The notes below the pieces were generated by a model, which did not search any database, was not told the origin of the DNA, and saw only the letters and a program-made list of their open reading frames with translations. DNA of 44,804 nt from Escherichia phage JLBYU60: the sequence record NC_073052.1; one strand, 5' to 3'. The translations under genes and the position numbers were made by a program. Each line of letters opens with the position of its first letter. Positions within the stretch are counted from its first letter, which is position 1. Below, piece after piece: positions 6,227 through 41,160 of the stretch.

Positions 6227-6263
6227 TGCAACCAATATAATGCAACCAACATACGCAATGCAA
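6227..6263 (-). promoter_or_regulatory. Putative sigma70-like promoter with two TTGGTTGCA elements
   Basis: On minus strand: -35 TTGCAT (6263-6258), 17-bp spacer, -10 TTATAT (6240-6235); TATATTGGTTGCACACCAACA element identical to that upstream of 40414. Confidence 0.45.
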
Positions 6264-11127: not shown

Positions 11128-11142
11128 TTGGAGAATACTACA

Positions 11143-11505
11143 ATGGCAAAAGCACCACTCTTCACACTTGACCCTAAGCCGACCTTTAAGCTGCCGATTG
11201 AGATCCCGCGCCCCGGTGAAAACGAACCGGGAAAAATGACGTTTACCGTGCGCCACCGCCCGATCGACGAATTTTCGCAGACCATGCAGGATACTGAGCG
11301 CAAGTTGTCGGAATATGACGACAATGATCCTGACGGCTTTAACGTTATGGTCGAGGCCATCATGCACGTCGCAGAAGGCTGGAATCTGCCGGACGAATTT
11401 AACGCGGAGAACGTCCGCCGCCTGGTGGTCAACTATCCGCGCGCGTTCGGCGTGTTCCACACGTCGTACTATCTCGAACTGATGGGGTTGCGTGAAAAAA
11501 ACTAA
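11143..11505 (+). CDS. Tail assembly chaperone (gpG-like)
   Basis: 120 aa, acidic; ends at slippery heptamer AAAAAAC (11496-11502) followed 7 nt later by a GC-rich stem; canonical position upstream of tape measure. Confidence 0.7.
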   Translation: MAKAPLFTLDPKPTFKLPIEIPRPGENEPGKMTFTVRHRPIDEFSQTMQDTERKLSEYDDNDPDGFNVMVEAIMHVAEGWNLPDEFNAENVRRLVVNYPRAFGVFHTSYYLELMGLREKN

Positions 11506-11819
11506 TTGAGGCGGCGCTACGCTTTTATGGCCCGCCGCCACCCTCCGAAGATTTAGCCGCGAGTTTATGGGGTGCGGCCCCCGAAGATGTTTGTCCGCCT
11601 GTTGCGCTATGGCCCGACAACGCGAAGGTAGTCGCAGTCTTCACAGATTGCTCCACGCAATGGCGCACCGGTTTTGGTGGCGCATACGGCATCGACTACG
11701 GCGTGCTGGAGTGGTTATTTAAGATGCACGGTATCGAAAACGAGCAGCGCGCGTTTAAAGATATCAAGCTAATGGAGCGAATCGCGCTTGATGAGATGGC
11801 GCAGCAGAACCCCGCATAA
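11143..11819 (+). CDS. Tail assembly chaperone frameshift product (gpGT-like, -1 PRF)
   Basis: -1 frame after the slippery site is open to 11819 without an internal start, encoding ...ALWPDNAKVVAVFTDCSTQWRTGFGG..., typical of gpT-like extensions. Confidence 0.6.
11496..11539 (+). promoter_or_regulatory. Programmed -1 ribosomal frameshift signal
   Basis: Slippery heptamer A_AAA_AAC (11496-11502), 7-nt spacer, then stem GGCGGCG (11510-11516) / CGCCGCC (11533-11539). Confidence 0.6.
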
Positions 11820-11954
11820 TGAAGCGGGACAGGCGGGACGTCCCGTTTTGTCCCGCCTCTGTAAAACTGCATATCTACTCACTTCCACTGCATAAACTCA
11901 AAACGGGACAAGCGGGACGTCCCGTTTTGTCACGCCCTGTAAATATGCATACCT
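11819..11954. repeat. Tandem ~45-bp sub-repeats each containing the 12-bp palindrome CGGGACGTCCCG
   Basis: Two similar units (about 11824-11875 and 11896-11947); palindromes at 11834-11845 and 11913-11924; each unit also forms GGCGGGAC...GTCCCGCC inverted repeats. Confidence 0.7.
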
Positions 11955-12140
11955 ATGCAGATTTCGTGCATAAACCAAACGGGACAGAAAGCGGGACAAA
12001 CACGAGGCGGGACAAAACGGGACAGCACCCCGTCCCCGCCAGTGCTGCCGCGGTTTTCAGCCGATCGGGACAGCGGGACAGCACCCCAGTCTTTCAGACT
12101 AGACGGGGGTCAATGGCCCCCCTCGTCTGAGACTGAATAA
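11955..12140. repeat. Dispersed direct repeat, copy A (CGGGACA iterons plus long imperfect hairpin)
   Basis: About 186 bp, near-identical at both ends to 40016-40201 (shared ...tgcataaaccaaacgggacagaaagcgggacaaaca... and ...gggacagcgggacagcaccccagtctttcagactagacggggg...cccccctcgtctgagactgaataa); lies between chaperone and tape measure genes. Confidence 0.8.
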
Positions 12141-12203
12141 GGTTTGTTTTGAAATCGCTGATACAATATCCATCGGCAACTGCATAAAAAAGGGGACTGC
12201 ATA

Positions 12204-14846
12204 ATGGCAGATCAGGCAGCAGGCATCACGCTAAAGGCTGATGTTGCACAAATCAGAACGGCAAATACTGTGCTGGACTCCTTCGCACAGAAATCCGAGA
12301 ACACAGAAAACAAGGTTAAGAAATTAAACGACACCCTCGGCAAATCCAAAAAGGTGACGAGTGACGCCGCGGGCGGAATGGAAAAGCTGGCAAACGAATC
12401 GCAGCGCGCCGCCGATGGCATGACGAAACAGGAGCGACTCGCCAACAGGTTAGGCATGTCGACTAAAAACCTGGGCTTTGCCTCGCGTAACGCCGCATTC
12501 CAGTTACAGGATATCGCAGTTACGCTTGAGATGGGTATGCCGGTACACCGCGTTATGCTTCAGCAGTTACCGCAGCTAACCGGCGCATTTGGCGGACTAG
12601 GTAACACTCTGCGTTATGTTGCTGGCTTCCTCGGTCCAGTTGGGATCGGCCTTGCTGCGGTAACGGCAACGTTAGGCGTGGGCGTAGCAATTACGTCCCG
12701 AGCAGAGAACCAGGTAGCGGCGCTTAATAAGACGCTGGCACTTTCCGGTAACATTTCCGGCCTGACGGCAAACCAGATCCTGGTGCTATCCGAGAACGCC
12801 GAGCGCATGGGCGGGTCATTCCGCAAGACGCGTGACACAATCCAGGCGCTGGCGGCGGCGGGTGTGAAAGCTGGTGGTGACTTCGGCGCATTGGCTAAGG
12901 TAGTTAATGACTTTGCGAAGGTGTCCAGCCAGCCGATCGAGGATGTGGTAGCGGCGGTGGCGAAGCTGTCAACCGACCCCGTTGGCGGACTGCGTGCGCT
13001 GGCGGATAAGTATCACGTCGTAAACGAAGCGCAGATCCAGCAGGTACAGTCGCTCGTTGATGCGGGTCGTGAGACAGACGCAGTTGCGCTGGCTAACAAA
13101 ACAGCCGCTGCGTCGTTCACCAGCATGACCAATGAGATCAAGGAGAACATGGGTACGCTTGAGCGATCTATGAACGTCGTCACATCGGCAGCCAAATCAA
13201 TGTGGGATGCCATCCTGGATGTGGGCCGCGCGCAGTCCTCCAATGAATCCGAGATGAAAGCGCGCGAATCACTGCAGCGGCTGACCACGGCTTACTATGC
13301 CGAGATGAAAGCGGTAAACGCTGCCGGTGGGGTAATGACTGAAGCGCAGAAAGCACGTATTAACATGCTTTACAGCGAACTGGTCGCCCAGGAAAAAGTG
13401 GTGGCGTCGCTCACCCTGCGTAACCGTGCTGAGCGAGACAACGCCCGCGCCGCAGACGAATCCGCAAAGGCGAACGAGGAGGCCAACCGCACTGCCCGTG
13501 ACCGCGCCGCGTTCGAGAAGGAATACGCCACCAACGCTAAGAAGCGCGCCGACGAGATCGCCCGCCTCAATTTGCTGAATAAGCGCGGCGTTATTGATGA
13601 GAAAGAACTAGCCGAGGCGGTGAAGCAGGTAAACGAGCGGTACAAAGACCCAGCCCCGAAAAAGGCCGCGGCTGTTCGCGTGGATGCCGGTATGAAAATG
13701 CTGGAAGTCGCACGGAGCGAACTGGCCCAGCTTCGAGAATCCGGCAAGCAGATCGAAGCCAACGCGTCTACGCAGACCCGCACGCAACGCGCTCAAGCGG
13801 CCTTAAACAAGCTGATCGCCGACAATGAGCAGTTAATCGCTGCGAGCAAAGAAAGAGCGCTAACGGCAGCAGAAAAGCAGCAATTAGTCGAGTTCGGGCG
13901 CGTGAAGGAAGTCCGCGAGCAGATCGTCGAAGAAGCCAAATTGCTGGATGCGAAAGAGCAGCAGGTTAAGGCGCACGCGCAGATCGATGCCTTCGTTAAG
14001 AACCAGAACGCCGAACTAAAAGCCACCGCGGCGGGCTATGCGCTTTCCACTCGCGAAGCGGCTAACCTGCGCGAAGAATTACAGCTGATTGACCGCCTTA
14101 AGCGCGTTGGTGCTAACGATACCGATATTGACCTGGCGGTGTCTAAGCTGCGCGAAGTGCAGGAAGCACAGACCGGTGCTAACGCCTCGCTATGGGATGG
14201 CTTCAGCCGCGGGCTTAAGGATAGCGTGGATGAAATGGGTAACGGCTATACGCAGATGGCGTCACTCACAAAATTCACGTTCGGCGCTATGCAGGACACG
14301 ATGAACGAGTTTTTCGAGACTGGCAAGCTGAACGCAAAGGATATGGTTAAGTCCATCCTGAGCGAATTAATCAAGCTGGCTACCTCGCAGGCGTTCAAGT
14401 CCATCGTTAGCGCTTTCGGTGGTGACGGCGGCAAAAACGGATTGTTCGGCGCTATCTTTTCCGGCCTCACTAAGAATGCGGACGGCGGAGCGTACGCAGG
14501 GGGCAATCTCGCGGCCTATTCGGGGAAGGTGGTAAGCCAGCCAACCTTTTTCAGTTATGGCGTCCAGGCGTTCGCTAAGGGCGCAGGATTGATGGGCGAG
14601 GCTGGTCCAGAGGCCATCATGCCGCTGAAGCGCGGGCCGGACGGGAAACTGGGCGTTGCCGCGTCTGGCGCAGGCGGTGGTATGGTCGTGACGACTAACG
14701 TTTACACGGGGACCGGTAAAACGGATACCAGTGTCAGCGGGCCGGATCCCCGTACCGCGCAGGCGTTCGGCAAGCAAATCACCGAGGCGGTGAAGGCCGA
14801 GATCGTGAAGGCGACGAAACCGGGTGGTGTACTTTACAAACGATGA
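12204..14846 (+). CDS. Tail tape measure protein
   Basis: 880 aa, long A/Q/E/K-rich coiled-coil central region, glycine-rich C-terminal part; RBS AAGGGGA; lies between chaperone and minor tail genes. Confidence 0.85.
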   Translation: MADQAAGITLKADVAQIRTANTVLDSFAQKSENTENKVKKLNDTLGKSKKVTSDAAGGMEKLANESQRAADGMTKQERLANRLGMSTKNLGFASRNAAFQLQDIAVTLEMGMPVHRVMLQQLPQLTGAFGGLGNTLRYVAGFLGPVGIGLAAVTATLGVGVAITSRAENQVAALNKTLALSGNISGLTANQILVLSENAERMGGSFRKTRDTIQALAAAGVKAGGDFGALAKVVNDFAKVSSQPIEDVVAAVAKLSTDPVGGLRALADKYHVVNEAQIQQVQSLVDAGRETDAVALANKTAAASFTSMTNEIKENMGTLERSMNVVTSAAKSMWDAILDVGRAQSSNESEMKARESLQRLTTAYYAEMKAVNAAGGVMTEAQKARINMLYSELVAQEKVVASLTLRNRAERDNARAADESAKANEEANRTARDRAAFEKEYATNAKKRADEIARLNLLNKRGVIDEKELAEAVKQVNERYKDPAPKKAAAVRVDAGMKMLEVARSELAQLRESGKQIEANASTQTRTQRAQAALNKLIADNEQLIAASKERALTAAEKQQLVEFGRVKEVREQIVEEAKLLDAKEQQVKAHAQIDAFVKNQNAELKATAAGYALSTREAANLREELQLIDRLKRVGANDTDIDLAVSKLREVQEAQTGANASLWDGFSRGLKDSVDEMGNGYTQMASLTKFTFGAMQDTMNEFFETGKLNAKDMVKSILSELIKLATSQAFKSIVSAFGGDGGKNGLFGAIFSGLTKNADGGAYAGGNLAAYSGKVVSQPTFFSYGVQAFAKGAGLMGEAGPEAIMPLKRGPDGKLGVAASGAGGGMVVTTNVYTGTGKTDTSVSGPDPRTAQAFGKQITEAVKAEIVKATKPGGVLYKR

Positions 14847-22314: not shown

Positions 22315-22346
22315 GTATTACACCGCCCAACCAGGATTGCAACCAA
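22315..22346 (-). promoter_or_regulatory. Putative promoter for the antisense lipoprotein gene
   Basis: On minus strand: ATTGGTTGCAA containing -35 TTGCAA (22342-22337), 16-bp spacer, -10 TAATAC (22320-22315). Confidence 0.4.
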
Positions 22347-22363
22347 TTTAAGAGGATTTAGCT

Positions 22364-24049
22364 ATGGCAGCGGGTACACTATCCGTAACGAATAACAGCA
22401 AGGCGGTTGTCGGGGTAGGCACGACGTTTACCGCGTTTAAAGCTGGCGACTTCTTAACGCTGGTGGTAGGACAAGTCCCCTACACCGTGGCAATCGCGTC
22501 CATTGAAAGCGCAACCGCGCTTACGCTGGTGCTGCCGTTCGACGGCCCAACGGCAACCGGCCTCGCGTGGGATGGCGTTAAGCGCGATACCATGTCGCTG
22601 GCAACGATGGGCGTTACCGTACAGGCTCAAAAAGCATTGCGCTTGATGATTGCAGATGAAAACAACTGGCGTGCAATCTTCGGCGACGCTGAAGAAATCA
22701 CGGTCACGCTGCCGAACGGGCAGGTGATGCAGGGTATGTCATGGGGCTACCTGTCGCAGTTGATGAAACAGATCGACCCAGTGGAAATGCGCGACCTGCA
22801 ACAACAAGCCGCCGCATCGGAAGCAGCCGCGCAAGGATTTCGCAATGAGGCAGAAGGCTTCAAAAACGACACCAACACCATCAAGACGCAGACCAACCAG
22901 ATTAAGACGGACACACAGGCTATCCACGACGCCACCAATACCATCAAGACGCAGACCAACCAGATTAAGACGGATACGCAGGCCATCAAGGACCAGACCA
23001 ACCAAATTAAGACGGATACCGGAGTTATTCGCGACCAGGCCAACACCGCGAAGACGGACGCGCAAGCCGCCCGCGATGCCGCGCAGGTATACAGGGACGA
23101 GGCCGAACAATTCAAAAATGAGGTTGACCCGTCTCAATACGCTAAGGTAAGTAACAACCTCACCGACCTCACCGACAAAACCGCGGCACGGCAGACTCTC
23201 AACGCAATCGGCGTCGGGGATTATGGCATCGGAGGCGGCGCACCTGGCGGAAGTTGGGACACAGCAGATGATAGCACCCTGATCGCTACAAACACAGGGT
23301 CCCCACTAGGTGACGTCTCCGTAGCGGGTGTGCATGTTAAGTTTGCGCAAAACTATGCTGTACAGTTCGCGGCGCGTCAAAGCCGATTTTTCTGGCGAAC
23401 TAAAGAGAATGGGGCGCTACAGAATTGGTGCGAAGCGGTGAAGCCGGGGGACTACGGACTAGGGATTGAAAACTCAGTCCCCCCGCCGAATACGCAGGCT
23501 TGCTTTTTCTCGCAGTCGATCGGAACACCGACTTGGGCACCTGCAAACGGCGCAGGATTTCAATCGGCCTACTCGCCCTCTCGTGTCGCACAGCTTATGG
23601 TCGGCGCGTTGCCAGCGCTCTACTATCGTTGGAACACCTCCGGCAACGCGCAAGTCTCCGCTTCGACGGCGCCGTGGTCACGGGTGCAAGATGCCGGTAC
23701 GTCTGACGCCCGTGTGAAGGATATTAAGGGAAATTTAAATGTGGAGGCGGCGCTGGATAACATCAACCGCCTTGAGTTTAAGTTATTCCGGTATACGTTT
23801 GACGAACCGGAGCGATCTACGCGACGCGGAATCATTGCACAGCAAGCGGCAACGGTTGACCGGGAATATGTGCACGACCACGAAGTTCCGGGGATGATGA
23901 CGTTAGACTTAAACCCGCTTGTCGCGGATTGCCTGGCGGCTATTAAAGCGTTAAGAGCGCGTGACGAGGCGAACAAGGCCGAGATTGCAGAACTGAAAGC
24001 TGCCGTAGCGGATTTGAAAGCCGCGGTCGCGGCGCTGACTAAAGCATAA
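22364..24049 (+). CDS. Side tail fibre with C-terminal intramolecular chaperone (peptidase S74-like) domain
   Basis: 561 aa; tandem 21-aa repeats (NTIKTQTNQIKTDTQAI...); C-terminal region DARVKDIKG...LEFKLFRYTFD...GIIAQQAATVD typical of auto-cleaving chaperone domains of phage fibres/endosialidases; terminator downstream. Confidence 0.75.
   Translation: MAAGTLSVTNNSKAVVGVGTTFTAFKAGDFLTLVVGQVPYTVAIASIESATALTLVLPFDGPTATGLAWDGVKRDTMSLATMGVTVQAQKALRLMIADENNWRAIFGDAEEITVTLPNGQVMQGMSWGYLSQLMKQIDPVEMRDLQQQAAASEAAAQGFRNEAEGFKNDTNTIKTQTNQIKTDTQAIHDATNTIKTQTNQIKTDTQAIKDQTNQIKTDTGVIRDQANTAKTDAQAARDAAQVYRDEAEQFKNEVDPSQYAKVSNNLTDLTDKTAARQTLNAIGVGDYGIGGGAPGGSWDTADDSTLIATNTGSPLGDVSVAGVHVKFAQNYAVQFAARQSRFFWRTKENGALQNWCEAVKPGDYGLGIENSVPPPNTQACFFSQSIGTPTWAPANGAGFQSAYSPSRVAQLMVGALPALYYRWNTSGNAQVSASTAPWSRVQDAGTSDARVKDIKGNLNVEAALDNINRLEFKLFRYTFDEPERSTRRGIIAQQAATVDREYVHDHEVPGMMTLDLNPLVADCLAAIKALRARDEANKAEIAELKAAVADLKAAVAALTKA
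22877..23020 (+). repeat. In-frame tandem 63-bp repeats within tail fibre gene
   Basis: About 2.3 copies of accatcaagacgcagaccaaccagattaagacgga... (21-aa unit TIKTQTNQIKTDTQAI). Confidence 0.8.
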
Positions 24050-25277: not shown

Positions 25278-25748
25278 TTATTGGTTGCAAGTGAATTTTG
25301 CAAGATTCACAGAATAAATATGCGGGACCAGTTCTTCACACGCCCGTTTGATGGCGGCGATGTTCTTCGCGCAGTCGTCAATGATGACCAGTTCGTTAAC
25401 TTCTGCATAGCACACCAGGCCAAATACGGAACGGGCCTTGTACTCTGGCGGCGGCGTGTCATCAAGCATATGGCGTAAGAACAGACGACCTTTCGGGAAT
25501 CTATCCAATTGCTCTTTCGTTGACTCCCAGCAATCTGACTGGCGGTTTGACAGGTACGCAATGTCGAAGCCCTGTTTAGCGTACATGCGCAATAACGGCA
25601 GCATGTCATAATTAATGTCTTCGCGGACGTGGGCCTTATGCCACTTCGCCCAAAACGTTGATTTAGTCTTGATCCCCGGAACTAGGTCGTCGCGCACACT
25701 GCTTGACCCGTTGATAACGCCATCTAAATCGCAAATCAGTAGTTTCAT
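25278..25748 (-). CDS. HAD-superfamily phosphatase (nucleotidase / polynucleotide phosphatase-like)
   Basis: 156 aa; HAD motif I LICDLDGV and motif IV VIIDD. Confidence 0.65.
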   Translation of the reverse strand: MKLLICDLDGVINGSSSVRDDLVPGIKTKSTFWAKWHKAHVREDINYDMLPLLRMYAKQGFDIAYLSNRQSDCWESTKEQLDRFPKGRLFLRHMLDDTPPPEYKARSVFGLVCYAEVNELVIIDDCAKNIAAIKRACEELVPHIYSVNLAKFTCNQ

Positions 25749-26877: not shown

Positions 26878-26958
26878 CGTGTTGTCTCCAGGTATTAAAA
26901 AAGGCGTCCAAACCGGACACCCTTAAGATAATGCAACCAATATGATTATGCAACCAAT

Positions 26959-29890: not shown

Positions 29891-30169
29891 TTAAGCGACC
29901 AAATCAGCAACCAATAAATCGCAGTCGACTATGTTGTCAATAACGCGAACGTTAGCACCGCGGCGGGCCATCCGCTCATGTTCGCGTACCTGGTGCGGCT
30001 TCGGTTTTCCACCGGGGCGCTTCACTTCGACGAACACTATTTTGCCGTTGATGATGATAATCAGGTCGGGCGCACCTGCGCGCCCCTCCCATGCCAGTTT
30101 TCGGCAGAATCCGCCTACCTCTTTCACCCGTCGCATCAGGTGACTTTGTATCTTGCCTTCTGGTGTCAT
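29891..30169 (-). CDS. VRR-NUC domain nuclease
   Basis: 92 aa from ATG 30169 with RBS AAGGA; core GAPDLIIIINGKIVFVEVKRPGGKPKPHQ typical of VRR-NUC (PD-(D/E)xK) proteins; start ATGA-overlaps HNH gene stop. Confidence 0.65.
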   Translation of the reverse strand: MTPEGKIQSHLMRRVKEVGGFCRKLAWEGRAGAPDLIIIINGKIVFVEVKRPGGKPKPHQVREHERMARRGANVRVIDNIVDCDLLVADLVA

Positions 30170-33333: not shown

Positions 33334-34113
33334 TTAACGGCGGCGACGTTTACGTGGCGCTTCGTCTTCGTCGTCGTCCTCATCTTCGTCATCGCGTGGC
33401 TTACGCCGTTTGCGAGGTTTTTCATCTTCCTCATCGTCGTCGTCATCGCGGCGCTTGGATTTCTTGGACTTGCGCGGCTTGTCATCTTCATCATCGTCAT
33501 CACGACGTTTTGACTTTTTGGACTTGCGCGGTGCTTCGTCTTCGTCGTTGTCCAGGTCTTCATCGGAGCAAGACGACCCGCCACCTCCGAAGGCTTCGCC
33601 GTCTTCACGGAATCGCAGACCCAGCAAGCCAGCCCCGAGACCCTTGCCGTTGGTATTGTTCCACGCCCAAATATCCAGGGACACATTGCAATAACAACCG
33701 GAGTAGATCTCCTGGCCTTCGATCTCGTCGCCTTCTACGGTCAGACCTTGTTCCGTCTGCTTCTCGCCAAGTGACGTTTGAATGATCGGCTGTTTGAACG
33801 ATTTGGCGTTGATGTACAACATGCCTTCGAATTCTTCGGTTACTTCGTCGCGCTCGTCACCGTCGCGAACTGCGCATTCCTTAGAATCCTGGGCGTAGTG
33901 GCGGTCCATCCACTTATCGGCATTCTTCTCGGATTTCAGCTTATCGGTGAGCACTGCGCGCGCTGCCGCTTCCACTTTGTCCACCTGCGGATCTTCTTTA
34001 TCCAGAAGAATAACGGCACGGTATGCCGGTTTTTGACCATCCTGTTTAGGGGTATCACGTTCCCAAATTTTAAGGAAGCATACGCGCACATTTTTCAGGT
34101 TGACTTTAGCCAT
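33334..34113 (-). CDS. Putative ssDNA-binding protein (DUF2815/gp2.5-like) with charged C-terminal repeats
   Basis: 259 aa from ATG 34113 (MAKVNLKNVRV) with RBS GAGGAA; adjacent to a DUF2800-like exonuclease; C-terminus has tandem K/R-rich and D/E-rich blocks (DEAPRKSKKSKRRDDDDEDDKPRKSKKSKRRDDDDDEED...). Confidence 0.45.
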   Translation of the reverse strand: MAKVNLKNVRVCFLKIWERDTPKQDGQKPAYRAVILLDKEDPQVDKVEAAARAVLTDKLKSEKNADKWMDRHYAQDSKECAVRDGDERDEVTEEFEGMLYINAKSFKQPIIQTSLGEKQTEQGLTVEGDEIEGQEIYSGCYCNVSLDIWAWNNTNGKGLGAGLLGLRFREDGEAFGGGGSSCSDEDLDNDEDEAPRKSKKSKRRDDDDEDDKPRKSKKSKRRDDDDDEEDEKPRKRRKPRDDEDEDDDEDEAPRKRRRR

Positions 34114-36357: not shown

Positions 36358-36873
36358 TTAATCTTCCAGTTCGAAATAGGTTTCGACGATTTCTTTTAGC
36401 TCTGTGTGGAAGTCTTCGACGTCGTCATCTTCCAGCTTGGCGATTGATTTGATCTCGAACGATTCCAGCAGGTCGTCGAATTCGTCGTTCGCATCGTCGT
36501 CGTCACCACCGGCAATAATCGCGGCATACTGTTTGATCTCGTCGCGCATCTCTGCCAGCGGATCGGCATCTTTCTTGCCTTTGCCTTTTGCCGGTGCTTT
36601 TTTAGACTTAGCCGGTTTTTCATCTTCGGCATCGTCGTCGTCATCTTCTACGACTTCTTTTTTGGCCTTACCCTTCGCCGGTGCTTTTTTAGCTTTAGCC
36701 GGTTTTTCGTCTTCGGCGTCATCGTCGCCATCTTCGACAACTTCTTTTTTGGCCTTAGACGGCTTCTTGTCTTCCTGCTTACCAACGGCAGCGCCAACGG
36801 TTTCATAATGCTTTGCAATGGTCTCCAGTGCTACTACGCCGCGAGTGATCAGGTTTACGATTTGCTCAAACAT
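36358..36873 (-). CDS. Hypothetical protein with tandem lysine-rich/acidic repeats
   Basis: 171 aa from ATG 36873 (MFEQIVNL) with RBS GGAGATA; central duplicated ~31-aa unit (KPAKAKKAPAKGKAKKEVVEDDDDDAEDE) and acidic C-terminus; the six-frame ORF extension to 37053 lacks a credible start. Confidence 0.55.
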   Translation of the reverse strand: MFEQIVNLITRGVVALETIAKHYETVGAAVGKQEDKKPSKAKKEVVEDGDDDAEDEKPAKAKKAPAKGKAKKEVVEDDDDDAEDEKPAKSKKAPAKGKGKKDADPLAEMRDEIKQYAAIIAGGDDDDANDEFDDLLESFEIKSIAKLEDDDVEDFHTELKEIVETYFELED

Positions 36874-37110
36874 GGTATATCTCCGATTGGTTAAGTTTAG
36901 GTGTCGGCAGTTAACTTCGTCGGTGGCCTTAACATATTGCCAGGTTACGCGTTCTCCCGTTCGGGTAGTGGACCTGGTTATATAATCACGGTTGGGAATC
37001 CTGACACTTCGATCCGGCCCCTGCGGTGCCCCTCTCCAGTTTGCGTCCTGCATCCTGTCGACGGAGTGAATGATAGATTGGTTGCAGGATGGGTGTCAAC
37101 AACTAATTTC

Positions 37111-37274: not shown

Positions 37275-37604
37275 ATGAATATCAAAGAAGCAATTGAAGT
37301 GTTATCTAATGCTATCCGCGGCGAGGCGGGTAAATCCTGGTATTACACAAATGCGGTGGATACTCTGTTATTTGAAGTGTCCAGGTTATCGCGTGCTGAG
37401 AAGGAGCTTACCGCCAAACTGGAATTACTGAATGGAACGGCAGCAAGCAAGCTGCAAAAACACAATGAAGAAATGGAAGAATACAAAAAGCAGGTTATCC
37501 GTTTGCGCGCCGAGGGCAAATCTTGGGCGATGATTGCCGAGTTGACCGGAATTAATCAGAGCACAGTGCGCTCCTGGGTACGCAATAATAAAACTTCTAA
37601 GTAA
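37275..37604 (+). CDS. HTH DNA-binding protein (putative early transcriptional regulator)
   Basis: 109 aa with RBS AGGAGA; C-terminal HTH-like segment SWAMIAELTGINQSTVRSWVRNN; first + strand gene after a 400-bp divergent intergenic region with sigma70-like promoter. Confidence 0.6.
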   Translation: MNIKEAIEVLSNAIRGEAGKSWYYTNAVDTLLFEVSRLSRAEKELTAKLELLNGTAASKLQKHNEEMEEYKKQVIRLRAEGKSWAMIAELTGINQSTVRSWVRNNKTSK

Positions 37605-37614
37605 GGCCACGGCA

Positions 37615-39879
37615 ATGAGCTTGATTAAATTCGCTGTAACAAAACCCGCTAAAAAAGGCGAAAAAGCCAGGGCGGAAAACTTCCAGATGACGACCGATGA
37701 GTTTTTCGAATTTATCAAAGATGCGAAAGAAATCTCCTCGGTGCATATCAACAAGACGGAAGATAAAGCCGAGTATGCGCGCCGCAAGCGTAAGGCCGAT
37801 GGCATCGTGGCGTATACCAGTGACGGATTGCGTCGTAAGACCAGTGCGGTGGACCGTTCGATCCTGTTCTTTGATATTGACCGCACCGACACCCGCACCC
37901 TGCGCCGCTGCCGCAAGGCGTTCATCGACGCGGGTCTGGAACACGTATTTCACACCACAACCGGCGACCGCCACCCGCTGAAAGGAGGCACGCGTTGCGC
38001 TCGTTTCCTGGTGCTCACCGATAAGCCTGTACCTGCTGAAGACCTGGGCCGCGTCCAGTATGCACTATTACACCAACTGGGCCTGTCAGATGTGGACTTC
38101 GATGATTGCACGAAAGACACAAACCGCCTTATGTACCTGCCTCACCAGCAATCGGTTGTTAAGTGTCACTACGGCAAACGTGCCCGCGTCCGTCGTCTGC
38201 TGCGCCTGGCGGATAAGCTGGGAGTGGAAAAAGAGGAAGTACGCCGCGAACTAACCCAGGGCGATGACGGCGTGGCGGACGGCATTCTGGATTGGTGCTT
38301 CCAGGCCGGATTCGAACCGCTGTCGTCCGGTCGTGGTTATGAAGTGCCATGCCCGAACGAACATCTGCATAGTGGCGAAGGGTCCACCGCTATCATGGTT
38401 AAGGATGGCGAGATCCGTTTCAAGTGTATGCACACCGGCAACGAGTGCTGTTCCGAACTGAACAGACACCAGCACCTGGCGCTACGTCTTATCGGGATCC
38501 CGGACCACCTGAACGTCGAACCGCACAACATGTCACGTAAGCAAATCGCCGCCATCCTTCCGGGACTGGACGACGAGGAGGTCGAATCGTGCTATGAACA
38601 TATCGTTGATGCGGTCGGTGACGGCGACGAGTACGGCGGATGTACGGACGCAGACCTGGACAACGAGCCGGTTGCACTGTTCAGTAAGCACGACCCGATC
38701 ATAGAAGGTCTGATTAACTTCAAATCGACCTGGTATATGGCTGGCGAGTCGAACATCGGTAAATCGTTCTACGTGCTGGGCCAAATGGGTGCGGTTGCCG
38801 CGGGGATTCCGTTCGGCGGCGCGAAGGTCGTCCAGTCCCATTGCTTCTATTTCGACGCGGAAGGTGGCGAAGCCTCTAACCAGCGCAAAGAAGCATTGCA
38901 GATTAAATATGAGCACGACCTGGACAAGCTGCACATTATCGATCTGCAATCACGCGGCTGGGATATCACCAGCAAATCCGGCTTGCGTGAAGTTATCAGC
39001 TTCATCAACCGCACCGCTAACGGCGAACCGGTTGGCCTGGTGGCGTTCGACTCACTCAACCAGACTGTTGCGTTGCGGTCCGCGGATGCTAAACCGTTCG
39101 ACGAGAACAACGCCAGCGATATGGGTGAAGTGGTCAAAGCGCTGAAGGCCATCGCGGAAAATACAGGTGGCAGTGCGGGCGTCATCCACCACCCGGCGAA
39201 GGGTGCAAACGGCAGCAGAACCCCCCGCGGGTCCGGCGCGCTGCATGGCGCTGTCGATTCTGCGTTCTTCCTGGAACAGCCGGACGACAACCAGCCAGGC
39301 CAATTGAACCTGTATCACGAAAAGGCACGTAACGGCATCAAGCAAGCGCCGCGTGGCTTCGTCCTGCTCAAGTGCAAGGTGAAGGTGGATCTCCGCAAGT
39401 CAGAAGCGTTCGAAGCCCACCAGTCCACCAGCACCGGGCCGGACTTCGGCGATGTGGTCGCCGGTTGGGACGTCAAGCCGATCGCATCAACGCCACGCGA
39501 CGAGACTCTTTACCTCGTACCGGTCGCCCTGGCACCGTTCGCCATTGAGCAGGCAAAGGCCGCTGGCAAGGCCGCAGTTAAGGAAGAGAACGCCGCAGGA
39601 CCGCGCAACGAAAAAGAGAAAGTGCTTTATGCAGCGCTGGAAAAACTGATGGAAGATAACCCGGACCATACCGGATTCAGCAAATCGGCAATTGTCCGCC
39701 AGGCTGGGCTTGCGAAAGGTGGCACATCGACGAAGGCAATCGACGATATGGTCGAGCGCGGCGTACTCGGTTTTTACACAGATCCGCACACCGGGGCCAT
39801 CTATGGGTCGTCGAATATCGTCATCAAAACGAATATACCCATCACGCTTTCGGCGACCGATGATGATTTAAAAGATTAA
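37615..39879 (+). CDS. Primase-helicase (replication initiation protein with RecA-like AAA_25-type ATPase domain)
   Basis: 754 aa; N-terminal region with LFFDIDRTD acidic motif and Cys/His zinc-binding segment CPNEHLHSGEG...FKCMHTGNEC; central Walker A GESNIGKS and Walker B-like LVAFDSLNQ. Confidence 0.7.
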   Translation: MSLIKFAVTKPAKKGEKARAENFQMTTDEFFEFIKDAKEISSVHINKTEDKAEYARRKRKADGIVAYTSDGLRRKTSAVDRSILFFDIDRTDTRTLRRCRKAFIDAGLEHVFHTTTGDRHPLKGGTRCARFLVLTDKPVPAEDLGRVQYALLHQLGLSDVDFDDCTKDTNRLMYLPHQQSVVKCHYGKRARVRRLLRLADKLGVEKEEVRRELTQGDDGVADGILDWCFQAGFEPLSSGRGYEVPCPNEHLHSGEGSTAIMVKDGEIRFKCMHTGNECCSELNRHQHLALRLIGIPDHLNVEPHNMSRKQIAAILPGLDDEEVESCYEHIVDAVGDGDEYGGCTDADLDNEPVALFSKHDPIIEGLINFKSTWYMAGESNIGKSFYVLGQMGAVAAGIPFGGAKVVQSHCFYFDAEGGEASNQRKEALQIKYEHDLDKLHIIDLQSRGWDITSKSGLREVISFINRTANGEPVGLVAFDSLNQTVALRSADAKPFDENNASDMGEVVKALKAIAENTGGSAGVIHHPAKGANGSRTPRGSGALHGAVDSAFFLEQPDDNQPGQLNLYHEKARNGIKQAPRGFVLLKCKVKVDLRKSEAFEAHQSTSTGPDFGDVVAGWDVKPIASTPRDETLYLVPVALAPFAIEQAKAAGKAAVKEENAAGPRNEKEKVLYAALEKLMEDNPDHTGFSKSAIVRQAGLAKGGTSTKAIDDMVERGVLGFYTDPHTGAIYGSSNIVIKTNIPITLSATDDDLKD

Positions 39880-39954
39880 ATTTTGCGCGCATTGGTTGCC
39901 GATATGGGAATTCCCATATCGCTAAAAGGTTAAATTTTGCGCGCATTGGTTGCC
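39876..39954. repeat. 25-bp perfect direct repeats flanking a 20-bp perfect palindrome
   Basis: TTAAATTTTGCGCGCATTGGTTGCC at 39876-39900 and 39930-39954; palindrome GATATGGGAATTCCCATATC at 39901-39920; first repeat overlaps the primase-helicase stop codon. Confidence 0.85.
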
Positions 39955-40015
39955 ATTTTGAGTGTTTTTATCAGGTCGTATTGGTTGCCGTGTAGTGTGA
40001 ATATAGTGAATAGTT

Positions 40016-40201
40016 ATGCAGTTTTACTGCATAAACCAAACGGGACAGAAAGCGGGACAAACAAGGGGCGGGACAAAGCGGGACAGCACCCCCGTCCCGC
40101 CCCGGATGGCGCGGCCTGGAGAGGAGCGGGACAGCGGGACAGCACCCCAGTCTTTCAGACTAGACGGGGGTCAGCGGCCCCCCTCGTCTGAGACTGAATA
40201 A
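40016..40201. repeat. Dispersed direct repeat, copy B (CGGGACA iterons plus long imperfect hairpin)
   Basis: Same orientation and length as copy A, 28,061 bp downstream; central ~45 bp diverged; located in the non-coding hub after the primase-helicase gene. Confidence 0.8.
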
Positions 40202-40350
40202 AATCCGAGGATTGCAAAATACACGGCAGCATGATGCGAAGGGCGGTCGTCGATGAACCAGGCAACCAATGCGGGTTGCATTATGCTGAGTGAAAAATGC
40301 AGTTTGCAGTCACAGCAGATAGCGATCAACTTTTTCATGCGCGTGATTAA

Positions 40351-40393
40351 TATTGGTTGCACCCTGCCTGGCGCCCTGCTATATTGGTTGCAC
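40351..40393 (+). promoter_or_regulatory. Putative sigma70-like promoter with duplicated TATTGGTTGCAC elements
   Basis: -35 TTGCAC (40357-40362), 17-bp spacer, -10 TATATT (40380-40385) preceded by TG-like extension; second TTGGTTGCACACCAA copy spans the predicted start site; gene starts at 40414. Confidence 0.5.
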
Positions 40394-40728: not shown

Positions 40729-41160
40729 ATGACCCGTAGACGCGCAAAACAGCTTTCGTGGCATATTCCCCTGCATTGCATACGAATATGGGCTAAGAAT
40801 GCGAATGTGGGGGATTCTGTATTCTGGTGTTATCGCGACGACGTAAAGCCACTGACGCAGACTCGCTACTTGCACCTGTTCGCAGCAAAGCACGGATTCC
40901 AGGTGCGGACTTCCTTGCAACCAATGGGGATCCGTATTACATTACGCCGAAAGCCCGCCATTGAGCGGGTAGGCAAACACTGGAGACTGAGCAAAATGAA
41001 CAAGCAACCTGAACGCTGGCGGAGTAAGGCCACGCGACTGACTTACTTCGTGACAGAAGAAGCAAACGGCAACGTGACTATTTCACACCCTAAGTGTGGT
41101 ACTCGCCGCACTATCTCGCGCCTCACATTAGTTCGTAACTACAGGAGATTGACAGAATGA
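40729..41160 (+). CDS. Hypothetical basic protein
   Basis: 143-aa ORF, arginine-rich; RBS-like GAGG upstream; no motifs. Confidence 0.5.
   Translation: MTRRRAKQLSWHIPLHCIRIWAKNANVGDSVFWCYRDDVKPLTQTRYLHLFAAKHGFQVRTSLQPMGIRITLRRKPAIERVGKHWRLSKMNKQPERWRSKATRLTYFVTEEANGNVTISHPKCGTRRTISRLTLVRNYRRLTE

What the first reader, a model, noticed from the sequence alone, without database searches (positions are those of the whole stretch)
11819..11954. Tandem units with perfect 12-bp palindromes CGGGACGTCCCG in the chaperone-tape measure gap
Immediately upstream of repeat copy A there are two ~45-bp units (about 72 bp apart), each with the perfect palindrome CGGGACGTCCCG nested in a larger inverted repeat GGCGGGAC...GTCCCGCC, followed by TGCATA-containing sequence. 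Palindromes of this kind are typical operator sites for dimeric DNA-binding proteins. The six-frame ORF 11819-12130 across this region is probably not coding. Transcription of tape measure and tail genes must cross or start in this region, so it could gate late tail gene expression.
Basis: seen in the sequence. Interest (0 to 1): 0.55.

Follow-up and report, generated by a model that had tools for sequence, protein, structure and literature searches.

The report
Candidate phage replication-origin repeats (iterons)
The two palindromes are head-to-head copies of a 5-7 bp repeat (CGGGACA) that, together with AT-rich segments and a long hairpin, most likely forms a replication-origin-type binding array for the phage's own primase-helicase rather than an on/off switch for tail genes; this is a familiar kind of element, not previously worked out for this phage group.

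Summary
CGGGACGTCCCG occurs exactly twice in this 44.8-kb Dhillonvirus genome, at 11834 and 11913, 79 bp apart, in the 384-bp gap between the tail chaperone and tape-measure genes.

The palindromes are not stand-alone operators. Each is two head-to-head copies of a repeat, CGGGACA. That repeat occurs 9 times in the gap and 6 times in a second region (40041-40141) just after the helicase-primase gene.

Both regions share a 195-nt module: an AT-rich TGCATA box, an array of repeats, and a ~20-bp-stem hairpin. In 13 related phage lineages the same module sits immediately 3' of the helicase-primase gene, but the repeat word changes between lineages (CGGACAA, TGTGCCA, GGGGGAGA, ACTCGCAA and others).

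The most variable part of the helicase-primase is a C-terminal domain predicted to be a winged helix, and it tracks the repeat word.

This matches iteron origins served by initiator-helicases (SaPI Pri-Rep/ori, P4 alpha ori/crr, pRN1 stem-loop). Best reading (about 0.58): the finding is part of an origin-type iteron array.

ORF 11819-12130 is not coding. The tail genes have their own conserved extended -10 promoter at 12159-12167. No experiment supports any of this. The repeats were already flagged in the SO-1 GenBank record.

The parts
11822..11857 (.). Unit 1: four repeat cores arranged -> -> <- <- (GGGAC at 11826 and 11835; GTCCC at 11840 and 11850). Contains the palindrome CGGGACGTCCCG at 11834-11845.
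   Evidence: the palindrome is kept in 16 of 18 Dhillonvirus gaps
11859..11897 (.). AT-rich box 1 (about 38% GC) with two CTGCATA motifs (11867-11873 and 11888-11894). It is flanked by repeat cores of opposite orientation.
11901..11936 (.). Unit 2: GGGAC at 11905 and 11914, GTCCC at 11919, and a degenerate fourth core (GTCAC). Contains the palindrome at 11913-11924.
   Evidence: replaced by a spaced inverted repeat (e.g. GGGACAGGGGTGCTGTCCC) in 7 of 18 relatives
11937..11975 (.). AT-rich box 2 (about 33% GC) with ATGCATA, TATGCAG and GTGCATAA. Its 3' part is the start of repeat copy A.
11946..12140 (+). Repeat copy A: a 195-nt module, 87% identical to 40007-40201.
   Evidence: alignment of 18 A copies and 12 B copies
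11980..12040 (.). Main array: four direct CGGGACA repeats (cores at 11981, 11993, 12009, 12019) followed by one inverted core (GTCCC at 12032).
   Evidence: repeats nearly invariant while spacers vary
12066..12080 (.). Two further direct CGGGACA repeats, spaced 8 bp here and 9 bp in other genomes.
12087..12135 (.). Long imperfect hairpin (about 20 bp of stem, variable loop, no T tract after it). This is the conserved end of the module.
   Evidence: found in eiAU and the other lineages with a different sequence but the same shape
12159..12167 (+). Extended -10 promoter-like site TGATACAAT in front of the tape-measure gene. It lies outside the finding and is the likely start of tail-gene transcription.
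   Evidence: only TGnTAYAAT in the genome; TGATACAAT invariant in 18 gaps; TACAAT followed by ATCGGCAAC also in eiAU
40007..40201 (+). Repeat copy B. It comprises an AT-rich TATGCAG-N5-CTGCATA box, repeat cores at 40042, 40054, 40070 and 40080 (direct), 40094 (inverted), 40128 and 40136 (direct), and a hairpin at about 40148-40196. It starts about 130 bp after the helicase-primase stop.
37615..39879 (+). Helicase-primase gene (754 aa) with an AAA_25 RepA-like helicase core. The C-terminal ~100 aa (about 39577-39876) are predicted to form a winged helix. This is the candidate repeat-binding initiator.
   Evidence: family hits; alignment; C-terminus least conserved; model and fold matches
11128..11819 (+). 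Tail assembly chaperone G/GT. G ends at 11505; the -1 slippery heptamer A_AAA_AAC is at 11496-11502; the T part (DUF1799) ends at 11819. This is the upstream boundary of the gap.

Best explanation
The finding is the 5' part of a composite array of short DNA repeats (iterons, core GGGAC, full word CGGGACA), interleaved with AT-rich TGCATA boxes and closed by a long hairpin.

The same module ('region B') lies directly downstream of the phage's helicase-primase gene. The chaperone-tape measure gap ('region A') carries a second, expanded copy.

The most likely function is that of an iteron-type replication origin or origin-accessory site. The proposed steps are:
1. The C-terminal winged-helix domain of the helicase-primase binds the repeats on double-stranded DNA.
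2. Oppositely oriented repeats on both sides of an AT-rich box position initiator-helicase assemblies so that the AT-rich DNA melts.
3. The adjacent palindrome or hairpin may extrude or mark where priming starts.
4. The phage DNA polymerase I then takes over.

On this reading the two 'perfect palindromes' are simply two repeats placed head to head.

Shown here: the anatomy, the conservation pattern, the linkage to the helicase-primase gene, the change of repeat word between lineages, and the predicted winged helix.

Inferred: that this domain is the binder, and that the arrays fire replication. It is also not known whether region A, region B or both do so.
For: 1. Clustering. 15 of the 18 CGGGACA copies in the genome lie in two non-coding regions. 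GGGAC/GTCCC occurs 15 and 7 times there, against about 0.4 per 384 bp elsewhere.

2. Constraint on the repeat word rather than on the whole sequence. Mean column identity is 0.95 for repeat cores versus 0.87 for other columns, and 76% versus 48% of columns are invariant (Mann-Whitney p = 1.5e-5). Spacers and spacing vary. Repeats occur in both orientations, which suits recognition of duplex DNA.

3. Conserved architecture at a conserved place. The order is AT-rich box, about 4 direct plus 1 inverted repeat, a spacer, 2-3 more repeats, then a long hairpin. This lies immediately 3' of the helicase-primase gene in Dhillonvirus, eiAU, phiEap-2, SE1, 37P2 and eight metagenomic lineages. phiEap-2 has it although it has no chaperone-tape measure gap.

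4. The repeat word is lineage-specific: CGGGACA, CGGACAA, TGTGGCA, TGTGCCA, GGTGCCA, GGGGGAGA, AGGGATA, ACTCGCAA, TCGCCCCG, GGGGATC, GTGCGGAA.

6. The neighbouring small HTH protein has an invariant recognition region across lineages with different repeats, so it is not the specificity determinant.

7. Region A has AT-rich boxes flanked by repeats of opposite orientation, as described for SaPI origins (PMC9371898). The hairpin shape is kept while its sequence changes, as for the pRN1 origin stem-loop located 3' of its primase-helicase gene (PMC4234260).
Against: - There is no experimental evidence of any kind: no binding data, no origin mapping, no deletion phenotype.
- GC skew follows gene orientation and says nothing about origins.
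- An origin in the middle of the tail operon is an odd position. Two origin-like copies need an extra assumption (a second origin, or a P4 crr-like accessory site).
- Region B in this genome lacks repeats on the left of its AT-rich box.
- Jerseyvirus and Kagunavirus relatives keep the C-terminal domain but show no array downstream of the gene.
- The co-variation argument rests on about 13 lineages and was read by eye, not tested statistically.
- Fold matches are generic winged-helix hits. The Foldseek E-values are not significant.
- A promoter-like site reads into copy B, so an RNA role cannot be excluded.
Confidence: 0.58

Rival explanations
1. Transcriptional control array. A phage DNA-binding protein, possibly the same winged-helix domain, occupies the repeats. 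It acts as a roadblock, insulator or activator that separates head/chaperone transcription from tape-measure/tail transcription and times the downstream promoter.
For: - The array lies between the chaperone stop and a conserved extended -10 promoter for the tape-measure gene.
- Copy B lies between two operons and is surrounded by promoter-like ATTGGTTGC sites.
- eiAU and a divergent Dhillonvirus have a canonical terminator right after the chaperone gene, so transcription is interrupted here anyway.
- Many replication initiators also autoregulate (general knowledge).
Against: - The repeats lie 80-340 bp upstream of the promoter, with a hairpin in between. None overlaps a -35 or -10 element.
- Half-site spacing of the palindromes is not conserved.
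- The module's conserved position is next to the replication gene, not next to tail genes. phiEap-2, SE1 and 37P2 show this.
- No repeats occur at other late-gene starts.
Confidence: 0.16
2. RNA-level element. The region acts in the transcript, as an attenuator or terminator after the chaperone gene, as a processing or stabilising hairpin (for example an RNase III site), or, for copy B, as a ~185-nt small RNA started from its own promoter.
For: - The region folds very stably as RNA: 11815-11980 gives -61 kcal/mol (z = -6.9), and copies A and B give z = -2.8 and -3.2.
- The ~20-bp imperfect hairpin is of RNase III-substrate size, and its shape is conserved across lineages.
- The HK578 and WFI records annotate unit 1 as a rho-independent terminator.
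- A -10-like TATAGT/AATAGT lies just upstream of copy B.
Against: - No Rfam family matches.
- No terminator-like site is found on the + strand; the hairpins lack T tracts, and CGGGAC/GTCCCG has no loop.
- Conservation falls on a short word whose spacers vary and whose orientation flips.
- The word is replaced wholesale between lineages while the architecture stays. That is hard to reconcile with a structured RNA or a sponge for a host protein.
- The high folding scores follow automatically from inverted copies of one repeat.
Confidence: 0.12
3. Packaging signal. The repeat arrays are binding sites for the small terminase subunit (a pac site) of this headful-packaging phage.
For: - Dhillonviruses are reported to package by the headful mechanism (PMC9022532 and PMC10059673).
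- Known pac sites such as that of P1 are clusters of short repeats (own knowledge).
- Several GenBank records start or end in or beside the gap.
Against: - There are two copies, 11 kb and 40 kb from the terminase genes, and the conserved linkage is to the helicase-primase gene instead.
- The record ends fall at different positions (query positions 212, 290 and 311). They are better explained by assembly breaks at the 195-nt A/B repeat.
- The one paper that reports defined ends places them elsewhere, at 26920-26929.
Confidence: 0.04

Closest known systems
SaPI (Staphylococcus aureus pathogenicity island) replicon: Pri, Rep and ori (PMC9371898)
   Same: - The initiator-helicase carries a C-terminal winged-helix domain that reads short (5-6 nt) iterons.
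- There are 6-12 iterons immediately downstream of the rep reading frame.
- An AT-rich centre has iterons of opposite orientation on both sides.
- Iterons and Rep specificity differ between islands.
- In SaPI5 the primase and helicase are fused into one protein.
   Different: - The SaPI Rep ATPases described are SF3 or MCM-type, whereas this protein hits AAA_25 (RepA/RecA-like).
- There is no detectable sequence homology.
- The module here ends in a long hairpin.
- The module here is duplicated at a distant site inside the tail operon.
- Nothing here has been tested biochemically.
Phage P4 alpha protein with ori and crr (own knowledge: Ziegelin & Lanka 1995; Yeo et al. 2002; both cited in PMC4234260)
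   Same: - One polypeptide combines primase, helicase and a C-terminal winged-helix origin-binding domain.
- Octamer repeats occur in two separate cis regions (ori and crr) several kilobases apart. This offers a precedent for regions A and B.
   Different: - The P4 primase is of the Toprim type and its helicase is SF3.
- P4 has a different repeat word and no terminal hairpin.
- In P4 both regions are experimentally required; here neither has been tested.
pRN1 plasmid origin stem-loop (PMC4234260)
   Same: - The origin lies directly downstream of the gene for a multifunctional primase-helicase that has a winged-helix domain.
- A long stem-loop is the essential element.
- A small DNA-binding protein gene sits upstream in the same operon.
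   Different: pRN1 has no iterons. It is an archaeal plasmid with an SF3 helicase, and its stem-loop is about 100 nt long.
IncQ plasmid RSF1010 oriV (own knowledge; references listed in PMC4234260)
   Same: The order is iterons, then a GC-rich/AT-rich segment, then hairpin-forming single-strand initiation sites used by a plasmid-encoded primase. It also uses a RepA-type hexameric helicase; the Pfam hit here is AAA_25, and the PDB hit to RSF1010 RepA is weak (E = 0.54).
   Different: In RSF1010 iteron binding, helicase and primase are three separate proteins. Its iterons are 20 bp long. The similarity here is one of layout only.
'Region A' and 'region B' repeat_region features of the Sodalis phage SO-1 GenBank record NC_013600
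   Same: This is the same DNA. Region A corresponds to the chaperone-tape measure gap and region B to the gap after the helicase-primase gene. Both are annotated as 'direct, inverted and palindromic repeat sequences; sequence similarity with region B/A; possible ...'.
   Different: It contains no analysis of the repeat word, of other lineages, or of a binding protein.

Membership tests
Iteron-type origin served by an initiator-helicase with a winged-helix domain (SaPI ori / P4 ori-crr type) | A cluster of many copies of one short repeat in non-coding DNA | tested here: met
   9 and 6 copies of CGGGACA in two intergenic regions, with only 3 elsewhere. Repeat cores are more conserved than spacers.
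Iteron-type origin served by an initiator-helicase with a winged-helix domain (SaPI ori / P4 ori-crr type) | The array lies immediately downstream of the initiator-helicase gene | tested here: inconclusive
   Met for copy B and for 13 related lineages. Not met for the finding itself (copy A), which lies 28 kb from the gene on the map, or 16.7 kb the other way round the circular map. Only a P4 crr-like second site would cover this.
Iteron-type origin served by an initiator-helicase with a winged-helix domain (SaPI ori / P4 ori-crr type) | An AT-rich segment flanked by repeats of opposite orientation | tested here: met
   Boxes 11859-11897 (38% GC) and 11937-11975 (33% GC) lie between <- <- and -> -> cores.
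Iteron-type origin served by an initiator-helicase with a winged-helix domain (SaPI ori / P4 ori-crr type) | [quoted passage not shown] | tested here: met
Iteron-type origin served by an initiator-helicase with a winged-helix domain (SaPI ori / P4 ori-crr type) | The repeat word is specific to each lineage and changes together with the initiator's DNA-binding domain | tested here: inconclusive
   At least 11 different words occur in 13 lineages. The C-terminal domain is the most variable part and is most similar where the word is shared. The sample is small and no statistical test was done.
Iteron-type origin served by an initiator-helicase with a winged-helix domain (SaPI ori / P4 ori-crr type) | The initiator binds the repeats, and the region supports initiation of replication | not testable with these tools
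   Needs EMSA or footprinting, plus origin mapping or plasmid replication assays.
   In unit 2 the GGGAC/GTCCC cores abut in 9 of 18 genomes and are 9 nt apart in 7 of 18. The same interconversion is seen at the fourth repeat of copy A in HK578.
   No sigma-70-like site lies within the units. The conserved promoter-like site is at 12159-12167, which is 235-325 bp downstream.
Rho-independent terminator (as annotated in the HK578 and WFI records) | GC-rich stem with a loop of 3 nt or more, followed by a T tract on the transcribed strand | tested here: not met
   The scan finds no + strand terminator in 11400-12400. The palindrome has no loop, and the TTTTG that follows can pair back into the stem.
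Known structured RNA family (Rfam) | Match to a covariance model | tested here: not met
   No hit at gathering thresholds in the whole window. Only chance-level microRNA-model hits appear at E >= 0.1.
Protein-coding gene (ORF 11819-12130) | Start codon and reading frame conserved among relatives; family match | tested here: not met
   The start codon is missing in 8 of 18 genomes. Stops or frameshifts occur in 5 more. Indels of 1, 2 and 11 nt are present. There is no Pfam hit.

The most novel reading that the evidence does not exclude
Region A is not a redundant copy. It would be a second, fully equipped initiator-binding site placed deliberately between the chaperone and tape-measure genes, so that replication and tail-gene expression are coupled. 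Initiator-helicase loaded on the head-to-head repeats would both fire replication and block or insulate read-through from the head genes. Tape-measure and tail proteins would then be made from their own promoter only in step with genome copy number. This would resemble a P4 ori/crr two-site system that doubles as a late-gene timer.
Probability: 0.12. Interest if true: 0.6.

Novelty: new member of a known kind. Interest (0 to 1): 0.4.

Why it matters
Dhillonviruses are common coliphages. About 150 genomes are known, they are part of the BASEL collection, and they are used in phage-therapy and defence-system studies. No replication origin has been defined for them.

If the reading is right, it gives three things:
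- a concrete, testable origin and initiator pair (CGGGACA arrays plus the winged-helix tail of the helicase-primase);
- a simple rule for finding the equivalent element in related genera (look immediately 3' of the helicase-primase gene);
- a natural set of matched repeat/domain variants for studying how initiator specificity evolves.

It also corrects misleading annotations of this gap as hypothetical proteins or terminators. It warns that the A/B repeat breaks assemblies. For phage engineering, it marks 11.82-12.14 kb and 40.0-40.2 kb as regions that should not be used as neutral insertion sites.

Tried and rejected
- **Rfam searches.** A search of the whole window and a permissive search of the gap found nothing.
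- **Promoter/terminator scan of both regions.** It gave no + strand terminator and only weak promoter matches.
- **Coding potential of ORF 11819-12130.** Rejected.
- **CRISPR-repeat mimic.** Similarity of GTCCCCGCCAGTG to the E. coli type I-E repeat is partial and absent from copy B. Rejected by eye.
- **CsrA-sponge small RNA (GGA motifs).** Rejected because the word changes to GGA-free words such as TGTGCCA and ACTCGCAA in sister lineages, and because it occurs in both orientations.
- **G-quadruplex or R-loop idea.** G tracts lie on opposite strands in Dhillonvirus and eiAU, and several lineages have no G tracts. Dropped.
- **cos site.** The ATCTTAAGGG ends reported for EE09 map to 26920-26929, not to the gap.
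- **GC and AT skew.** They follow gene orientation and are uninformative for origins.
- **Small HTH protein (37275-37604) as the repeat binder.** Rejected because its recognition region is invariant across lineages with different repeats.
- **Concerted evolution of copies A and B within genomes.** Not significant (p = 0.08-0.12).
- **Consensus folding of hairpins across lineages.** It failed because the sequence alignment was poor. This was replaced by single-sequence folds.
- **Homologue search with the C-terminal fragment alone.** It returned nothing; the full-length query worked.
- **Literature searches.** Searches for the SO-1 'region A/B' note and for a Dhillonvirus origin found nothing relevant.
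Full report
**What the window is.** The 44.8-kb window is a complete genome of a Dhillonvirus, an HK578/SO-1-like virulent coliphage. The gap region matches 157 phage records, 150 of them over most of its length at 80-99% identity. Gene order matches annotated relatives. The finding lies in a 384-bp non-coding gap. Upstream is the tail chaperone G/GT: G ends at 11505, a -1 slippery A_AAA_AAC sits at 11496-11502, and the DUF1799 T part stops at 11819. Downstream is the tape-measure gene, starting at 12204.

**Check of the observation.** CGGGACGTCCCG occurs exactly twice, at 11834 and 11913. The chance expectation is 0.15. The palindromes sit in two direct-repeat units with a 79-bp period. Each unit is a 36-nt GC-rich part (92% identical between units) followed by a 39-nt AT-rich part with TGCATA motifs (72% identical). 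The description is therefore correct apart from the spacing (79 bp, not about 72) and a degenerate outer arm in unit 2.

**What the palindromes are made of.**
- They are head-to-head pairs of a shorter repeat. CGGGACA occurs 18 times in the genome: 9 in 11825-12080, 6 in 40041-40141, and 3 elsewhere.
- The core GGGAC/GTCCC occurs 15 and 7 times in these two regions.
- The two regions share a 195-nt repeat, 11946-12140 and 40007-40201, at 87% identity.
- The module reads: AT-rich box with TATGCAG/CTGCATA, four direct repeats, one inverted repeat, a spacer, two more repeats, then a hairpin with about 20 bp of stem and no T tract.
- The finding's two units are extra modules of the same kind. Each is -> -> <- <- followed by an AT-rich box, placed in front of copy A. 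As a result, region A has AT-rich boxes flanked by oppositely oriented repeats.

**What it is not.**
- ORF 11819-12130 is not conserved. The start codon is missing in 8 of 18 distinct relatives, 5 more have stops or frameshifts, and there are indels of 1, 2 and 11 nt. It has no Pfam match.
- No Rfam family matches.
- No + strand intrinsic terminator is detected, although the HK578 and WFI records annotate one at unit 1.
- The very stable predicted RNA folds follow automatically from inverted copies of one word.

**Variation within Dhillonvirus.**
- In 18 distinct copies of the gap, repeat cores are significantly more conserved than the rest of the array. Mean column identity is 0.95 versus 0.87, and 76% versus 48% of columns are invariant (p = 1.5e-5). 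Spacer sequences and even spacings change.
- The 12-bp palindrome of unit 2 is kept in 9 of 18 genomes. In 7 of 18 it is replaced by an inverted repeat whose GGGAC and GTCCC cores are 9 nt apart (e.g. GGGACAGGGGTGCTGTCCC). In HK578 the converse change creates a palindrome at the fourth repeat of copy A.
- A fixed-geometry dimer operator is therefore unlikely. A word read one copy at a time fits.

**Variation between genera.**
- A scan of viral contigs for the hairpin showed two copies per Dhillonvirus genome. It also found a related hairpin upstream of the tape-measure gene of Edwardsiella phage eiAU, preceded by TCGCCCCG repeats instead of CGGGACA.
- I then followed the helicase-primase gene (window 37615-39879) into relatives. 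The same module lies immediately 3' of that gene in phiEap-2 (CGGACAA), SE1 (GGGGGAGA), Klebsiella phage 37P2 (ACTCGCAA, both orientations), and eight metagenomic lineages. Those carry CGGGACA, TGTGGCA, TGTGCCA, GGTGCCA, AGGGATA, GGGGATC, GTGCGGAA, and CTCGCAA; one lineage (L051) has a mixed GGGA-type repeat.
- The hairpin sequence also changes, but a long hairpin remains.
- phiEap-2 has no chaperone-tape measure gap at all.
- The position after the helicase-primase gene is therefore the ancestral one. The finding belongs to a secondary, expanded copy present in Dhillonvirus and eiAU.
- Jerseyvirus and Kagunavirus relatives lack such an array at that position.

**Which protein reads the repeats.** Two DNA-binding candidates lie next to region B.
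- The small HTH protein (37275-37604; HTH_23 and Sigma70_r4_2 hits) has an invariant recognition region (...SWAMIAExTGINxSTVRSWVRN) in lineages with four different repeat words. It cannot set the specificity.
- The helicase-primase has an AAA_25 RepA-like helicase core, and its N-terminal part matches phage primase families in PHROGs. Its least conserved part is the C-terminal ~100 residues: 52-62% identity there versus 75-81% in the helicase core.
- That C-terminal tail is most similar (62%) in lineage L046, the one that shares CGGGACA. This holds even though L046's helicase core is the most diverged.
- 37P2 and L050 have related tails and related repeats.

**Most likely mechanism.** The evidence shown is: a lineage-specific short repeat in arrays, AT-rich boxes flanked by oppositely oriented repeats, a closing hairpin, tight linkage to a primase-helicase gene, and a variable winged-helix tail on that enzyme. 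From this I infer an iteron-type origin. The winged-helix tail binds the repeats, initiator-helicase assemblies melt the AT-rich DNA, priming follows at or near the hairpin, and the phage DNA polymerase I extends. Region A may be a second origin or a P4 crr-like accessory site. Binding, firing, and the division of labour between A and B are all untested. I put this reading at about 0.58.

**Comparison with known systems.**
- The closest described system is the SaPI replicon. Rep has a C-terminal winged helix that reads 5-6-nt iterons. There are 6-12 iterons immediately downstream of rep, an AT-rich centre, oppositely oriented iterons on both sides, island-specific specificity, and in SaPI5 a fused Pri-Rep (PMC9371898).
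- P4 alpha combines primase, helicase and a winged helix, with repeats in two distant regions, ori and crr (own knowledge; cited in PMC4234260).
- The pRN1 origin is a stem-loop directly 3' of its primase-helicase gene (PMC4234260).
- The layout also recalls RSF1010 oriV: iterons, an AT-rich segment, and hairpin priming sites.
- None of these is homologous in sequence to the phage protein, apart from the generic AAA_25 hit (the PDB match to RSF1010 RepA, E = 0.54, is not significant). The claim is therefore 'works like', not 'belongs to the same protein family'.

**Rival readings.**
- *Transcriptional role (0.16).* A conserved extended -10 site (TGATACAAT, 12159-12167) lies between the hairpin and the tape-measure gene. 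It is unique in the genome, invariant in 18 gaps, and partly conserved in eiAU. However, the repeats are 80-340 bp upstream of it and are linked in evolution to the replication gene.
- *RNA role (0.12).* This is disfavoured by the wholesale change of word, the use of both orientations and the variable spacers.
- *pac site (0.04).* This is disfavoured by position and duplication. The GenBank records that start or end in the gap do so at different points, consistent with assembly breaks at the A/B repeat. Published packaging calls are headful, or a cos site that maps to 26920-26929.

**Novelty and score.** The repeats themselves are already annotated as 'region A' and 'region B' in the SO-1 GenBank record, with a truncated 'possible ...' note. 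I found no paper that analyses them or defines a Dhillonvirus origin. The element is best filed as a new member of a known kind, namely iteron origins of self-loading initiator-helicases. Its mildly unusual features are the terminal hairpin and the second copy inside the tail operon. Interest is moderate (0.4). It would be useful for this widely used phage group and as a natural series of matched repeat and domain variants, but it is not surprising in principle.

Noticed in passing
window 6228-6236(-), 22339-22347(-), 25280-25288(+), 26933-26958(-, two copies), 29907-29915(-), 37077-37085(+), 39891-39988(+, three copies), 40262-40270(-), 40352-40391(+, two copies), 40917-40925(-): A second conserved word, ATTGGTTGC, has 13 exact copies. 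All lie in intergenic promoter-like places and are oriented with the downstream genes. The word overlaps a -35 (TTGCAC/TTGCAT) spaced 17-18 bp from TATATT/TATCTT. It is also present in eiAU and the metagenomic relatives, with variants TGTTGGCTG in phiEap-2/SE1 and GTTGGCAGC in L049. The small sigma-70-region-4-like HTH protein (37275-37604) has an invariant recognition region in the lineages that share this word, so it is a candidate binder.
   Followed up: partly
window 12159-12167: The extended -10 promoter-like site TGATACAAT lies in front of the tape-measure gene. It is the only TGnTAYAAT in the genome and is invariant in 18 Dhillonvirus gaps. TACAAT followed by ATCGGCAAC is also conserved in eiAU.
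   Followed up: partly
window 26920-26929 (- strand): The 10-nt '5' cos end' ATCTTAAGGG reported for Dhillonvirus EE09 maps here, just downstream of a double ATTGGTTGC promoter-like site. Other papers report headful packaging for the genus, so the cos call may be an artefact.
   Followed up: no
window 11820-12203, in GenBank records NC_073077.1, NC_073059.1, OX460974.1, MK138527.1, MN158213.1, NC_073081.1: Six deposited Dhillonvirus genomes begin or end inside or next to this gap, at different positions. The likely cause is assemblies breaking at the 195-nt A/B repeat rather than real genome ends.
   Followed up: partly
MG065648.1 (hits H2 and H91): A record named 'Campylobacter phage A144' (host C. 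jejuni) is 99-100% identical to this coliphage in the gap and in the tape-measure N-terminus. The host label is doubtful.
   Followed up: no
window 40013-40034, compared with loci L010, L017, L023 and others: In region B the centre of the TATGCA...TGCATA palindrome is GTTTTAC in some genomes and its approximate reverse complement ATAAAAC in others. This looks as if the loop had been flipped.
   Followed up: no
L007 2780-3698 and L008 1-222 (Edwardsiella phage eiAU): The eiAU chaperone-tape measure gap is about 1.1 kb long. It holds a canonical terminator, a minus-strand gene cassette with its own GCAACCAAT promoter motifs, and then the TCGCCCCG array and hairpin. The deposited record is cut inside this gap.
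   Followed up: partly
window 33350-33564 and 36464-36737 (- strand genes); window 22866-23033: There are coding low-complexity repeats. GAC/GAA-rich (acidic) tandem units of 54 and 87 nt occur in early minus-strand genes. A 63-nt tandem repeat occurs in the lateral tail fibre gene.
   Followed up: no
window 11496-11502: The canonical -1 frameshift heptamer A_AAA_AAC joins the chaperone G frame to the T (DUF1799) frame. Many relatives annotate the T part only as small 'hypothetical proteins'.
   Followed up: no
L043 and L044 (Kagunavirus Golestan, Jerseyvirus wksl3): These relatives keep a winged-helix-like C-terminal tail on the helicase-primase. However, a terminator and a minus-strand cro-like gene lie downstream instead of a repeat array, so their origin, if of the same kind, must be elsewhere.
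   Followed up: partly
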